Origin: Eledone cirrhosa | Lineage: Eukaryota | Assembly: GCA_964016885.1 (NCBI GenBank) | Contig: OZ024741.1 | Span: 382,540,001 to 382,604,000 of the forward strand | Direction: 5' to 3' | Length of the DNA stretch: 64,000 bases | In this document: in pieces, positions 25,708-62,691 of the stretch | Numbering within the stretch: position 1 is the stretch's first letter | How the letters are laid out: each line of letters opens with the position of its first letter | Made by a program: the position numbers and the translations under genes | The notes under the pieces: generated by a model | The model's input: only the letters and a program-made list of their open reading frames with translations | The model's database searches: none | Told to the model about the DNA's origin: nothing

Positions 25708-25908
25708 AACGAAGGAAATGTGGTAAGGAACCAGGTGGACCAAAACGCACCAAAGTACTCAATACTTAGGGGAGTAGAGTGGGTAATAGGAACGAGTAGG
25801 TCCCCGACGGCTGAGCTCAAGCCGTTTCGACGGCTAATTCTGAACGTACAGTCCAGAATTAGCCGTCGAAACGGCTTGAGCTCAGCCGTCGGGGTCCTAC
25901 TCGTTCCT
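25708..25908 (-). mobile_element. Family B short fold-back element carrying the 3' half of an HHR
   Basis: Palindrome 25786-25850 / 25854-25908 plus a unique tail; flanked by (TA)n; related copies at 58317, 62194, 62297 and 62516. Confidence 0.85.
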
Positions 25909-27449
25909 ATATATATATATATATATATATATATATATATATATATATATATATATATATATATATATATATATATACATGTATGTGTCTGTGTATGTGT
26001 GTTTGTGGATCTGTTTGTGGGGCGTCAACGTATATATCCGAACGTGGGTTTTTGTGCGTAGAAGATTGATAAAACATGACGCCTTAAACAGGACTAGAAA
26101 TAGATTACCGCGATATAAAACACACCTTAGAATATATATTAATTCTTTATAATCTATATTTACGATCGGTATTTAATTGGTTTATAATATTTCGGTGGCT
26201 CGAGTAAAAGGAAAATTGTAGTAATTTCTTCAGAAGTCACATAAACTGATGATTTATTGCTATGCTATGGCCGATATAAATATGTGATAACTACAGACGG
26301 CTTTACTAGCTGCTGAACCAGTAACTGATATGCCAACCAATTAAATGTGCCGTTCAAAGAATACAGCTTCAACATAACCCATAGTCCGTATATTTACCAA
26401 ATTCTATTGCACTTGTCTTAACTGAGATTAGATCAACACAAACCTGATTTATTATTTTCATTTCCAAACGTATATATATGGCTGAATGAAAACGCACGTG
26501 ATTTTTTGTTTTTCTTATCACTCTGTACTTTATTATTTATTTCTCACTCTTTCTTCTGGTGAAAGACTTGTGTCGGAAACGTAAGACACTCTTCCATCTT
26601 TTTCAAGCGTAAAACTAATATGTTTCTTCCATGTACTGTATCGTTTGTTTCGTTATCTCTATTTACCTTTATACAATACCCATATATATATATATATAGA
26701 GAGAGAGAGAGAATTAGTACATCTACCAACATATGCGTACAGATGGAGTGAAAATTTTAGTAATTAAGTTAATTTTTAATTTAAAAATTTTCTTATTTTA
26801 CGTCTTTCATATGGTGTGGGTCCTGCTTTATCAATGTTGGTATACGTTATTGTATATTTCCAACATATATCATATATTACGCGCACACGCACACACACAC
26901 ATAAACACAAGAAAGGGAAGATATATATATATATATATATATATATATATACACAAGAAAGGGAAGATATATATATATATATATATATATATATATATAT
27001 ATATATATATATATATATATATATATATATATATATATATATATATATATTTATATATATATATAAATATAAATATGTGGATGGTGTGTGTGTGTGTGTG
27101 AGTGTATATTTTAAATATATATTATGGCGAATAACTACGCTTCTCAGTCATTGTTCCTATGAATTGTTTGTAGCAAATCAGTGATCATTGAGTCAAAAGT
27201 ACCTTTTAGAGTAACAAATAACCCTTGTAGTATAGGAAGGAGATGTCCTCAGTCCTACCGTAAGAGCATTCTCTGTTGTTAGAATCAAGAAGGGACTATC
27301 TCGACCAAAAGAAACCATATACCTTCAGTATTCACTTTCTAACTGTTCACGTGTTCTGCAAGAATCTTACCAGTGTTATGAACATTGATAACATTATGAT
27401 TGTAACATTATGATTATGTTCAAAAACACCGAGATATTCACACAAAAAT

Positions 27450-27810
27450 TATTCAGGCATAATCGCCCAGAAAATCGACAAAAGGACACTTTTCCCAACC
27501 ATGATATCAAAGAAGCCGGTGGTGCTGCAAATCTAATCACGCTCAATAACCGAATTGTTACAAGACCATTCAAAGAAAACCCAATAATTGTATGTTATGG
27601 CCTTTCCCCCGACAATCACTTGCCAGTGTAACAAGGTTTCACTCTATATTGTGGGACACTGTTTCTGAAGTCCATACATATGCCATGCTATTTCTTGGAA
27701 GAGATTTCATCACGCAACTGACAGCTAACAGAAATCGCATATTTATAGAAGAGTTCCTACATCATCATAATTTCCTAGCAGGGAATACCATCTCGCAGAA
27801 GCACAAATGA
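27450..27810 (+). pseudogene. Degraded AP-endonuclease fragment of an RTE-like LINE
   Basis: RIVTRPFKENPIIVCY..; NRNRIFIEEFLHHHNFLAGNTISQK resembles the N.NG..L......L...NT.FQ.K motif. Confidence 0.45.
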
Positions 27811-29014
27811 AAAACTATATATACATATGTGTGTGTATGTGTGTGTGTGTGTGTGTGTGTGTGTGTGTGTGTGTGTGTGTGTGTGTGTGTGTGTGTGTGT
27901 GTGTGTGTGTGTGTGTGTTTATGTGTGTGTGTGCGTGTGCGCGTAATATATGATATATGTTGGAAATATACAATAACGTATACCAACATTGATAAAGCAG
28001 GACCCACATCATATATTGCATATGAACATATATATATATATATATATATATGTTTCTAACATATATATATATATAAACGCACACACTCTCGTGCATGTGG
28101 GCACGCACAGGCACTCACACTCTCAAACACCTAAATATACATACATACATACATACACACACACCCACACATATATATATATATATATTTATATATATAT
28201 ATATATATATATATATATATATATATATATATATATATATATATATATATATATATATATATATATATATATATATATATGTATGTATGTATGTATGTAT
28301 ACAATTACTGCCTGCCAACCGTACGCTTGAGTTGCATTGATGTTTAATGTTTGAAAACATAACATGGAAAGGGATATTATTCTTTAATGCTATAAACACT
28401 AATTTCTATTCTATTAATATATATAAGAAATTACTAAACAGCATAGTGATTTAGCAATTTCATGCGAATAAATTTCGGTCACTGACCTGATTAACATTAC
28501 AACGATCTAATTCGGTAACATGAAATAATTTGAATAGCGGAATAGTCTCTCTCTTGTTCAAATACCCATCAGATATCCCTTGATAGAAAACATCATTGAA
28601 AATTACATCGTATTATGATCATAGTAGCACTCTACAGCTCTCCTCTACTGTTACATGCAATATTGTTTCAGTTTGTATGACAAAATATGTAGAACGAATA
28701 TAATTGTCTTGAACAATGTAGTTAATGCTTGGTCTTGTACTAATTTCTCATGTAGAGGCTATTTTATATTGTTAAACACGTTCAATGTCCTGGATATTTC
28801 CAGACAGAAACCTACGAAACTTTACCTTTACTTTGAATCTGTTAATTCCTGATGGAGTTATAGGGGCGCCATATTGACAAACGACATTTCTAGAGCATTT
28901 TGTATACCGGCTGTTGCTTATCCCCTCTCCATGTCTGAATACAGTATATCTCTTCCAGAGAAGGATAGAGAGTGAGGCAATGGAGCGTAAAAGAGGCATA
29001 GAGGAAGAAGTAAG

Positions 29015-29168
29015 CCCAGTACTGGATTGGTAATTATTTTATCGACTACGAATGATGAAAGGTAAAGTTGAAATTAGTGGGATTTTAAATCAGAGAGCAG
29101 AGAGTAGAGATCCGAACAAATTCCGCAATTACTTCTGAATTCCTCCGTCTCTGCCAATTCACCGCCTT
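29015..29168 (-). mobile_element. Degraded tRNA-SINE, family 1
   Basis: Reverse complement starts aggcggtgaattggcag and contains tttcatc..gtcgataaaat. Confidence 0.6.
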
Positions 29169-60800: not shown

Positions 60801-61490
60801 TATATATATACATACATATAAATATTTGCAAATGGAATAAGGTTTTATACAAAACAGAAGTTATAGAGAAAAAAAAAACGGAACTGGAAATAGCACGGAA
60901 TATATATTTAAGGATCTGTTCTTTTTCTTCTTTGATTCGTCAAAGTGACAGTATTGAAAATATGGGGAAAACAATTCTTTTTTTAAAAAAAAGAGTTTTA
61001 TAATGTATATAAGATATATAAAAAATAATAGGTTTCGATGTATCAGTGTAAACCATCTTATCAAATGTTGAATATTACAATTAAAAAGAATTGAACAGAA
61101 TTAAAAATTAAAAATTTAGATTTAAGTGTTGAAGCGTTCTGTTCATCTTTCTTGTTGACAAAAATAAAAGTAAAAAAGAAAAACAGATCCTTAAATACAT
61201 TTTCCGTGCTATTTCCAATTCCTCTCTCTCTGTCTCCTTATATATAAGTTAGAAATACATCGACGATTGTCCTTCTTGCTTCTGTTGGACACCACCAGTG
61301 GGTCTCAGCCCCGGTGTTTTGTATATCTACGGCTTTCTAAATGTTTACATATAAGCATTCTTTAGAAATATGAAATTCCGAAACATATCTGTATACAGCT
61401 ATGCATGAAGATTAATCCTAATTCCATTCTTTTTATATATATATATATATATATATATATATATATATATATATATATATATATATATGT

Positions 61491-61994
61491 GAAGAGAGAA
61501 GAAACATTTAGATATAATTAGTAATAAAATATATCATACCTAAACTGCTCCTAGATTCCTCGACTACGTAGTTTCGTGGCATAAACAAAAACAATACATC
61601 ATAAAGATATAGAGTCCTGGCGAGGTCTGCCGACTTATCAAGAGGATACCTCATTTTACTAGTCTCAAGAACGCGTCTACACGACTACCCCCTCCGCCTC
61701 CGTGGTATTTTCTTCGGGGTTATAAGAGGCTTAGCTCTGTTTCTCGACCGTTATATCGCGTCACTATCTCCCCCTCCGCCTTTTGGGATTCTTTCTCACG
61801 TCGTGTAGACGCGTTCTTGAGACTAGTAAAATGAGGTATCCTCTTGATAAGTCGGCAGACCTCGCAAGGACTCTATATCTTTATGATGTATTGTTTTTGT
61901 TTATGCCACGAAACTACGTAGTCGAGGAATCTAGGAGCAGTTTAGGTATGATACATTTTATTACTAATTATATCTAAATGTTTCTTCTCTCTTC
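61491..61994. repeat. Inverted repeat (61491-61685 / 61800-61994); each arm carries an HHR
   Basis: Near-identical ~195-bp arms; the left arm abuts (TA)n. Confidence 0.95.
61839..61928 (+). ncRNA. Type I hammerhead motif with U3-A8 core (mirror copy on the minus strand at 61557-61646)
   Basis: tcctc-TTGATAA-gtcggca...tgccac-GAAA-ctacgtag (palindromic stem III)-TC-gagga. Confidence 0.72.
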
Positions 61995-62193
61995 ATAATG
62001 TATTTTTAACTCTGATACTGGTTCAGTCTAGTTCAACCGGATTGGTCTGTCCCAGTCATTCATTGAGCAACATCGGTGAAGTTGGCACCCTTAACTCACG
62101 GTTGGGTGCGGATGCATTCATGTATATGTGTGTGTCCGCATGTATCTGTGTGTTTCTAAATATATTGTTATATATATATATATATATATATAT

Positions 62194-62691
62194 AACGAAG
62201 GAAATGTGGTAACGAACCAGGTGGACCAGAATTAGCCGTCGAAACGGCTTGAGCTCAGCCGTCGGGGTCTTACCTGTTCCTATATATATATATATATAGG
62301 AAAAAGTATGACCCCGACAGCAGAGCTCAAGCCGTTTCGACGGCTATTTCTGGACTATTTAGTCCAGAAATGGCCGTCGAAACGGCTTGAGCTCTGCCGT
62401 CGGGGTCATACTTTTTCCTATTTCCCACTCTACTACCCTAAATATTGAGTACTTTGGTGCGTTATGGTCCATCTGATTCCTTACCACACTTCCTCCTTCG
62501 TTATATATATATTTAACAAAGGATTTGTGGTAACCAGATGGACAATAACGCACCAGAATACTCAATACTTAGGTTAGTAGAGTGGGTAATAGGAAAAAGT
62601 TTGACCCCGACTGCAGAGCTCAAGCCCTTTCGACGGCTATTTGAAATAGCCGTCGAAACGACTTGAGCTCTGCCGTCGGGGTCAAACTTTT
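62194..62691. mobile_element. Cluster of three family B fold-back elements (62194-62283 internally deleted; 62297-62503; 62516-62691)
   Basis: Repeated gccgtcgaaacggcttgagctc.gccgtcggggtc in both orientations, separated by short (TA)n. Confidence 0.88.

What the first reader, a model, noticed from the sequence alone, without database searches (positions are those of the whole stretch)
25708..62691. Family B: half-hammerhead palindromes whose arms co-vary within each copy
Seen: every copy has GAAA-cggct.gagctc.gccg-TC-ggggtc (HHR stem III, GUC site, 3' strand of stem I), but upstream of the gacggcta..tagccgtc hairpin the expected CUGANGA is replaced by the mirror image of the 3' half. Loops differ between copies, and copy-specific variants appear in both arms (aacgagtagg at 25.8 and 58.3 kb, aaaagtatg at 62.3 kb, aaaagtttg at 62.6 kb). 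Short arms usually end at ttcc|TA joined to (TA)n. Inference: the arms are regenerated at insertion by snap-back at stem II, destroying the ribozyme.
Basis: partly seen in the sequence, partly recalled or inferred. Interest (0 to 1): 0.75.

Follow-up and report, generated by a model that had tools for sequence, protein, structure and literature searches.

The report
Penelope retrotransposon run-off palindromes

Summary
The family is real: five copies in the window (four palindromes) and 54,367 exact core matches in the genome. It is the hammerhead-plus-tail end (pLTR) of a Hydra-clade Penelope-like retrotransposon. Un-inverted parents exist (5,686 matches), but their core is UUGANAA or CUGANAA, not CUGANGA, and their stem II is not gacggcta..tagccgtc. 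The arm variants mark subfamilies, not single copies.

Snap-back is not supported. In a position-ordered sample, 80 of 81 pairs are one long and one short arm, each cut off independently. In 43 of 77 the short arm reaches further, and in 8 the arms do not overlap. The best model is twin priming from both ends of a (TA)n break at two RNA sites 81 nt apart.

The added finding: 141 of 163 arms stop within 22 nt, inside stem II. An extra G precedes the A of an initiator-like TYAGT (G:A 6,014:997; one base up 477:1,496). This points to run-off at a likely capped RNA 5' end. No RNA data could test it. The architecture is published, and this scan noted it before in this genome and others.

The parts
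25673..25708 (.). (TA)n target, left flank of copy 1
25709..25845 (-). Copy 1 long arm: family positions -14 to +123 (0 = G of GTCGAAAC), hammerhead 3' half plus 81-nt tail; subfamily aacgagtagg
25846..25849 (.). Copy 1 junction filler (GTAC)
25850..25907 (+). Copy 1 short arm, -15 to +42; GAAA at 25868-25871, GTC cut motif at 25888-25890, stem I strand 25891-25895
25908..25977 (.). (TA)35 right flank of copy 1
58319..58373 (-). Copy 2 short arm (-12 to +42)
58374..58510 (+). Copy 2 long arm (-14 to +123), blunt junction, (TA)n follows at 58511-58558
62195..62228 (-). Copy 3 long arm, tail piece only (+89 to +123); no overlap with the short arm, so no palindrome
62226..62280 (+). Copy 3 short arm (-12 to +42), joined through 2-3 nt of microhomology
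62299..62357 (-). Copy 4 short arm (-16 to +42), subfamily aaaaagtatg; shares the (TA)n at 62281-62298 with copy 3
62357..62501 (+). Copy 4 long arm (-19 to +123)
62516..62642 (-). Copy 5 long arm (-8 to tail end), older and more diverged
62643..62694 (+). Copy 5 short arm (-9 to +42), ends TTAC|TA before a CA repeat

Best explanation
Each palindrome is a pair of 5'-truncated, head-to-head pieces of the pLTR of a Hydra-clade Penelope-like retrotransposon, likely made by reverse transcription primed from both ends of a cut (TA)n target and likely stopped by running off the RNA's 5' end, which lies inside stem II of the predicted hammerhead. Shown: the parent element (719-aa RT + GIY-YIG ORF, tandem pLTRs); two fixed 3' ends 81 nt apart, each just 5' of a TAT in the parent; one long plus one short arm per insertion; independent 5' ends; blunt or 1-2 nt junctions; a stop zone at -22..0; an extra G before A(-15). 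Inferred: (1) the GIY-YIG domain cuts both strands of (TA)n; (2) each target 3' end pairs with one of two UAU sites (+43, +124) and primes cDNA; (3) most priming uses the pLTR copy at the 5' end of the RNA, 58 and 139 nt from a start at A(-15) in an initiator-like TYAGT (some starts to about -21); (4) the RT copies the cap as an extra G, and host end-joining trims and joins the two cDNAs; (5) both arms usually come from one RNA or one active master, hence the subfamily match. Long insertions arise when the 3' pLTR copy is primed.
For: Parent: L115 has an inverted truncated copy, a partial tandem, the ORF and a tail on one end only. Hydra motifs RW[K/R], DKT, CxCx5C, CxxC and CxH are in the ORF and in 110-118 of 120 listed homologues. 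Ends: 72 of 201 arms end at +45 and 79 at +125, counting the shared TAT/TA; both flanks are (TA)n in 63 of 77 pairs. Pairing: 80 of 81 pairs long+short, none short+short; 21 of 21 long two-armed insertions mapped likewise (loci chosen for opposite-strand cores). Independence: short arm further in 43, level in 9, long arm further in 25 of 77; junction gap 0 or -1 in 36 of 77. Stop zone: 141 of 163 arms reaching 0 end by -22; hazard 0.08-0.11 per nt at -10..-22 against 0.005 or less beyond. Extra G: 6,014 G against 997 A before A(-15), where parents have T or C; one base up 477 G against 1,496 A; odds ratio 19. None of 30 G loci carries parent upstream sequence. Five three-piece insertions hold a middle piece running from -9..-18 into the ORF (to +216..+943), so the stop zone is also the 5' end of ORF-bearing templates. 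Literature: two internal RT starts define the tail and both strands are cut and extended in vitro (PMC11167929, parts 1-2 of 4 read); an extra G marks capped 5' ends in L1 insertions (PMC11702581, passages); Penelope has an internal pLTR promoter with an Inr (PMC2377424, passages).
Against: There is no direct RNA evidence for the start, the cap or ribozyme cleavage. By eye, in about 12 of 30 G loci the G could come from the partner arm or flank. A(-19) shows no G excess (9 of the first 100), so arms reaching -16..-21 need further starts that are not shown. No full-length copy starting at -15 was found: of 70 ORF-continuing copies, 37 run at least 90 nt upstream, 10 end at -22..0 and 19 end above 0. 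The 80% pass rate there is weak evidence, since tandems could arise by insertion into an existing pLTR. A non-templated C added at any RNA end would also give the G. Pfam and PDB sequence searches found nothing for the ORF. The sample needs an exact 22-nt core on one arm and is mostly from one end of contig C1.
Confidence: 0.72

Rival explanations
1. Twin priming as above, but the stop zone is an RT stall or RNA break in the long stem II of an RNA that extends upstream, not a transcription start.
For: The stop zone coincides with the 3' strand of the upper helix of stem II. Ends spread over about 20 nt and reach -21 with no G excess at -19. No full-length copy begins at -15.
Against: The helix is AU-rich and weak (fold z-scores 0.41 to -1.91). 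The G excess is specific to A(-15). YAGT is kept in all parent subfamilies read while its pairing partner changes. Arms that pass -22 rarely stop soon after.
Confidence: 0.15
2. One reading: one cDNA snaps back at stem II and copies itself, giving the mirror arm.
For: Arms match within a locus. In 13 of 77 pairs the long arm reaches 4 or more nt further, as a fold-back needs. Some centres hold short templated inserts.
Against: 52 of 77 pairs have the short arm level with or beyond the long arm; 8 pairs do not overlap; loop-less perfect centres occur. The short arm always ends at the same TAT-adjacent site, as a second priming would. Variants private to a locus and shared by both arms are few (about 4 in 85 pairs).
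Confidence: 0.05
3. The short palindromes, or their long arms, are a non-autonomous SINE- or MITE-like element that is itself the master.
For: They outnumber parent-core copies about 9 to 1. A long arm followed by (TA)n keeps both UAU sites, so it could be a template if the promoter is internal (inference).
Against: Centres are not inherited (39 distinct in 49), which excludes a palindromic master. The two ends are not terminal inverted repeats. The one subfamily that looked parent-less in my sample has 87 parent-type copies among about 1,730 arms. Three-piece insertions use ORF-bearing RNA.
Confidence: 0.06
4. Arm co-variation comes from gene conversion or cruciform repair after insertion.
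For: One pair (L117:6021) has a 3-nt patch of another subfamily on one arm.
Against: Arms accumulate differences separately: short-only 72 and long-only 75, against 27 shared, of which 23 recur in other loci as subfamily markers.
Confidence: 0.02

Closest known systems
Hydra clade of C-terminal EN+ Penelope-like elements, including Hydra-1_Obim (Craig et al. 2021, PMC8557442; section 11, passages and supplement hits read)
   Same: Single ORF with RT then GIY-YIG; RWK-type, DKT, CxCx5C, CxxC and CxH motifs; (TA)n target; partial tandems; inverted 5'-truncated copy; tail on one end.
   Different: A different family from Hydra-1_Obim, whose listed hammerhead has a canonical CTGAAGA core; five family-B motifs had 0 hits in the supplement text held. 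The core here is U3-A8 or C3.A8, stem II is long, the tail is 81 nt rather than 30-40, the unit is 3.1-3.5 kb rather than under 3 kb, and about 9 of 10 arms stop inside the ribozyme.
Poseidon PAc of Anolis carolinensis (Frangieh et al. 2024, PMC11167929; parts 1-2 of 4 read)
   Same: Cuts and extends both target strands; two internal RT starts define the tail; starts lie just downstream of the hammerhead; uncleaved RNA is the main template.
   Different: Different clade. PAc starts were reported as not homologous to the cut DNA, while both starts here sit beside a UAU that could pair with a (TA)n end. The genomic run-off class was not described in the parts read.
U3-A8 hammerhead variant of Schistosoma Cercyon PLEs (Cervera and de la Pena 2014, PMC4209133; section 5 and passages read)
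   Same: U3-A8 covariation in the core; type I hammerhead in a PLE pLTR; motifs on opposite strands 100-700 bp apart were noted.
   Different: Here stem III is 5-6 bp with a palindromic loop rather than minimal, and 24 of the first 100 parents carry a C3.A8 mismatch.
L1 twin priming and the 5' extra G (Ostertag and Kazazian 2001 as cited in PMC11702581; passages read)
   Same: Second RT primed from the other end of the break, end-joined inverted pieces, extra G from a capped 5' end.
   Different: In L1 it is a minority route with a variable second site and little overlap. Here it is the rule, with two fixed sites and overlapping arms that form palindromes.

Membership tests
Penelope-like element, Hydra clade | Single ORF, RT followed by C-terminal GIY-YIG endonuclease | tested here: met
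   719-aa ORF in L115 with LYRDD and C-terminal VIY..YIG; 2,054 homologues, the top one carrying PF01541, recalled as GIY-YIG. Direct Pfam scan was blank.
Penelope-like element, Hydra clade | RWK motif and DKG changed to DKT | tested here: met
   RWR and DKT in P0001; RW[KR] in 114 and DK[TS] in 118 of 120 homologues
Penelope-like element, Hydra clade | CxCx5C linker; CxxC and CxH around the conserved E and N | tested here: met
   CNCPDRSIC, CNLCSEE and CKH in P0001; no Cx2-5CxxC linker (definitions)
Penelope-like element, Hydra clade | Insertion into (TA)n | tested here: met
   Both flanks TA in 63 of 77 pairs, at least one in 76
Penelope-like element, Hydra clade | Canonical hammerhead in the pLTR | tested here: inconclusive
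   A complete type I topology is present but with a variant core: 76 U3-A8, 24 C3.A8, 0 C3-G8 in the first 100 of 5,686. Not canonical as the paper describes for the clade; U3-A8 is a published PLE variant.
Penelope-like element, Hydra clade | Placement in the Hydra clade on an RT tree | not tested
   No reference set on the machine; compared only by eye with Hydra-1_Obim in the supplement
EN+ PLE insertion architecture | Partial tandem, inverted 5'-truncated copy, tail at one end | tested here: met
   L115, L298 and 21 long insertions; 80 of 81 short pairs
Type I hammerhead ribozyme (parents) | Three helices around the core, with GUC cut site | tested here: inconclusive
   Minimum-energy fold equals the full topology in 2 of 17 parent copies (one subfamily); others need constraints or lack the stem II closing pair. 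No hammerhead among the 150 of 185 Rfam rows shown for the window.
Type I hammerhead ribozyme (parents) | Self-cleavage | not testable with these tools
   Only a hint: 7 of 19 ORF-continuing ends above 0 lie at +23..+28, around the predicted cut at +25/+26
Type I hammerhead ribozyme (window palindromes) | 5' core (YUGANRA) and stem I 5' strand | tested here: not met
   Absent in all five copies; four fold into one long hairpin
MITE (Tc1/mariner type, TA target) | Terminal inverted repeats at both ends and a fixed interior | tested here: not met
   Ends are ACGAAGG and TTCC, not inverted copies; centres differ
Non-LTR retrozyme | Short head-to-tail tandem units, each with a whole type I hammerhead | tested here: not met
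   Units are head-to-head and lack the 5' core; definition from bioRxiv 10.64898/2026.07.22.740005, part 1 of 5 read

The most novel reading that the evidence does not exclude
The element's promoter starts transcription inside its own hammerhead, so the 5' pLTR copy on the mRNA is a dead half-ribozyme that keeps both RT start sites, while the whole 3' copy can cut itself just upstream of them. The ribozyme then acts as a switch: cleavage leaves only the 5' sites and yields abortive run-off palindromes (about 9 of 10 arms), while uncut RNA yields long insertions. This gives PLE hammerheads a defined role and makes the genome a record of tens of thousands of twin-primed strong-stop events.
Probability: 0.25. 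Interest if true: 0.75.

Novelty: new variant of a known kind. Interest (0 to 1): 0.5.

Why it matters
How Penelope-like elements form their inverted ends and one-sided tails is an open question (stated in PMC8557442), with one in vitro system among the papers read (PMC11167929). This family supplies a genome-scale record with fixed numbers to test: two start sites beside UAU, one arm from each target strand, and a template end at a defined base inside the ribozyme. It also explains why canonical hammerhead searches miss the family, and why about 200-bp fold-backs that look like MITEs are retrotransposon products. Transcribed copies would form 55-60 bp duplexes; any role as RNA-editing substrate is untested.

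Tried and rejected
1) Canonical parent: CTGANGA within 4-34 nt of the core gave 40 hits; 30 were read and were junction loops or joints to other repeats. 2) Rfam: only microsatellite and hairpin matches below threshold in the rows shown. 3) Pfam and PDB sequence searches of the ORF were blank; the Atlas search did not run. 4) Sequencing runs: no RNA holder listed. DNA contigs of two runs hold the family and joints skipping 50-115 nt; they may be the assembly's own sample, so I use them only against a long-read artefact. 5) Second capped start at A(-19): no G excess. 6) A 3' splice site at TTTAG|TCC would end arms at -13 and would not put G before A(-15); rejected by reasoning. 7) Parent-less subfamily: rejected. 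8) Two RNAs per insertion: L117:6021 is discordant at 3 sites, but its long arm keeps the partner's other markers, so it is ambiguous. 9) Ends at the ribozyme cut among TA-primed arms: about 10 of the first 100 junctions fit +25..+27 by eye, a weak excess with a pattern bias. 10) A tree was built but not read; nearest-neighbour counts were used. 11) Rows dropped: 9 of 137 pairs (sister family or far apart), 4 of them from the position-ordered set. 12) Literature: searches returned no paper, by listing or passages read, describing run-off at a start site inside a PLE hammerhead. The library lacks most subscription papers, and Arkhipova et al. 2017 on Terminons was not held; from memory it describes short palindromic ends.
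Full report
Observation. The window holds five copies of a 90-200 bp element, in or beside (TA)n tracts. All carry the 3' half of a type I hammerhead. Four are palindromes with an unpaired 81-nt tail on one arm. The fifth (62195-62280) is a short arm joined to an inverted piece of tail. The genome (3.0 Gb; an octopus by the scan's earlier notes, consistent with the repeat content, not determined here) has 54,367 exact matches to a 22-nt core, control 0. Positions below count from the G of GTCGAAAC as 0.

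Parent. The predicted gacccc-CTGANGA-gacggc parent was not found: a wider CTGANGA pattern gave 40 hits, and none of the 30 read was a parent. Position-ordered loci showed the real parent: ACCCC-YTGANAA-G, a long imperfect stem II, GAAAC, stem III, GTC, GGGGT. That pattern has 5,686 matches. The first 100 are 76 UUGANAA and 24 CUGANAA; none has G8. U3-A8 is a published PLE hammerhead variant. L115 shows the whole element: an inverted truncated copy ending in the tail at (TA)n, a partial tandem, a 719-aa ORF, 3' UTR, hammerhead, and a tail-less end at (TA)n. The ORF carries the motif set that Craig et al. give for the Hydra clade and has 2,054 homologues, the listed ones mostly about 700 aa and 40% identical. 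Pfam and PDB searches were blank. Folding supports the hammerhead topology fully in 2 of 17 parent copies and partly in others; activity is untested.

Co-variation. In 85 pairs covering -6..+42 (position-ordered and similarity-chosen loci together), arms differ at 1.69 sites within a locus and 4.85 between loci, 0 of 2000 permutations. The shared variants are subfamily markers. aacgagtagg is in 132 and aaaaagtatg in 55 of 497 arms, and both occur in un-inverted parents (15 and 3). The partner is the sole nearest arm for 2 of 170 arms, and nearest arms fall on either side equally. Arms then decay separately: 72 short-only and 75 long-only differences against 27 shared, about 4 of them private. 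So the match says the two arms came from one RNA or one active master; it does not favour snap-back.

How the palindrome forms. The position-ordered sample is the first 100 exact core hits on contig C1, 20 arbitrary or adjoining 10-kb stretches, 14 more stretches near the window, and the window. Of its 81 head-to-head pairs, 80 join a long arm (ending at +123) to a short arm (ending at +42), and none joins two short arms. In the parent both ends are followed by TAT, which could pair with a (TA)n primer end. After dropping 4 sister-family or distant pairs, the short arm reaches further 5' in 43 of 77, level in 9, and less far in 25. Twenty long arms stop above 0, and 8 do not overlap the short arm. 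Junctions are blunt or have 1 nt of overlap in 36. Of 49 centres, 39 are distinct. All 21 long two-armed insertions mapped follow the same rule, some with the short arm 2 kb longer. A fold-back copy must be a subset of the tail-bearing arm, so snap-back cannot be the general route. Two primings, one per target strand, fit all classes and match the in vitro behaviour of PAc.

Why the arms stop in stem II. Of 163 arms that reach 0, 141 end by -22. The stop rate is 0.08-0.11 per base at -10..-22 and 0.005 or less beyond; 16 of the 22 that pass run at least 300 nt. Parents have T or C before A(-15), yet the genome has 6,014 arms with G there and 997 with A. One base further up the ratio reverses, 477 to 1,496 (odds ratio 19). 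None of 30 G loci continues into parent sequence; in about 12 the G could also come from the partner arm or flank (by eye). An extra G marks a reverse-transcribed cap in L1 insertions. A(-15) lies in TTAGT or TCAGT in the parent subfamilies read, which resembles the initiator consensus (recalled), and Penelope is known to use a pLTR promoter with an Inr. Five three-piece insertions contain a middle piece from -9..-18 into the ORF, followed by another arm starting at -14..-18: the RT likely ran off, jumped to an internal site and ran off again. I infer that the template's 5' end lies in stem II, so the 5' core was never on it.

Limits. No RNA test was possible. A(-19) has no G excess (9 of 100), so arms reaching -16..-21 need other starts. 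Of 70 ORF-continuing copies, 37 run far upstream and 10 end in the stop zone; no full-length copy starting at -15 was seen. Those tandems may form by insertion into an existing pLTR, so they do not exclude a stall. Seven of 19 ends above 0 cluster at +23..+28, near the predicted cut; this is a hint only.

Comparison and novelty. It works like a twin-primed EN+ PLE insertion and meets the protein, target and architecture tests for the Hydra clade; its hammerhead core is a variant, and no tree was made. The inverted copy and one-sided tail are published, and this scan recorded the architecture and the two-strand idea for other loci (seen after my reading was stated). Not found in the papers searched or in a second look-up of scan notes: the stop zone with an extra G inside the ribozyme, accounting for about 9 of 10 arms. 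Papers seen: PMC8557442 (abstract, section 11, passages, supplement hits), PMC11167929 (parts 1-2 of 4), PMC4209133 (section 5, passages), PMC2377424, PMC11702581 and PMC13282606 (passages), bioRxiv 10.64898/2026.07.22.740005 (part 1 of 5; its supplements are closed). Subscription papers by Arkhipova and Evgen'ev may already discuss parts of this.

Verdict. A real, very abundant family; a known kind of element with a new, testable mechanistic signature. Interest 0.5.

Noticed in passing
window 59977-60809: A second fold-back family: palindrome 60439-60809 with a partial copy at 59977-60226 and canonical CTGATGA motifs at 60181 and 60615 (minus strand); probably another PLE end.
   Followed up: no
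window 7739-8473 and 12320-13137: About 740-bp inverted repeats 3.8 kb apart (93% alike), with a 97-bp tandem at 12945-13137 carrying CTGATGA in each unit; may flank a PLE.
   Followed up: no
window 1-680 and 3001-3769: About 690-bp inverted repeat (94%) with nested shorter repeats, CTGATGA at 2880.
   Followed up: no
window 32967-33072, 36378, 36719, 58012: Further hammerhead-like cores of other families, two on opposite strands about 40 nt apart at 32967/33006.
   Followed up: no
window 30617-31062, 3948-4099, 56340-56405: Other self-inverted repeats.
   Followed up: no
window 39631-40162, 47387-47547, 56033-56226, 63140-63524: A dispersed repeat of about 145 bp, SINE-like by recall, in tandem at 39689-39982. 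A 439-bp tandem duplication lies at 23055-23937.
   Followed up: no
L031, L039, L047, L049, L053; L033, L040, L056 (about position 1500): Family-B arms joined in the same orientation just behind the CTGANGA of two other repeat families, making chimeric hammerhead-like sequences; my pattern selected for this.
   Followed up: partly
G000:C1:91476613-91487262 and C1:437200348-437210963: Head-to-tail arrays of four units with periods of about 3,540 and 3,530 bp; candidate source loci.
   Followed up: no
L137:192, L164:4722, L083:1793-2291, L124:1885: A sister family with a related hammerhead half and TTAGTTCAG at the matching position; two of its palindromes appear to end in the same zone.
   Followed up: partly
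L120:4288-4746: Two neighbouring insertions share the same junction (-15 / +20), one with a long arm cut at +58: a local duplication or a repeated event.
   Followed up: no
parent cores, e.g. L070, L187, L200: 24 of the first 100 parents have a C3.A8 mismatch in the core, so some successful lineages may carry a weak or dead ribozyme.
   Followed up: partly
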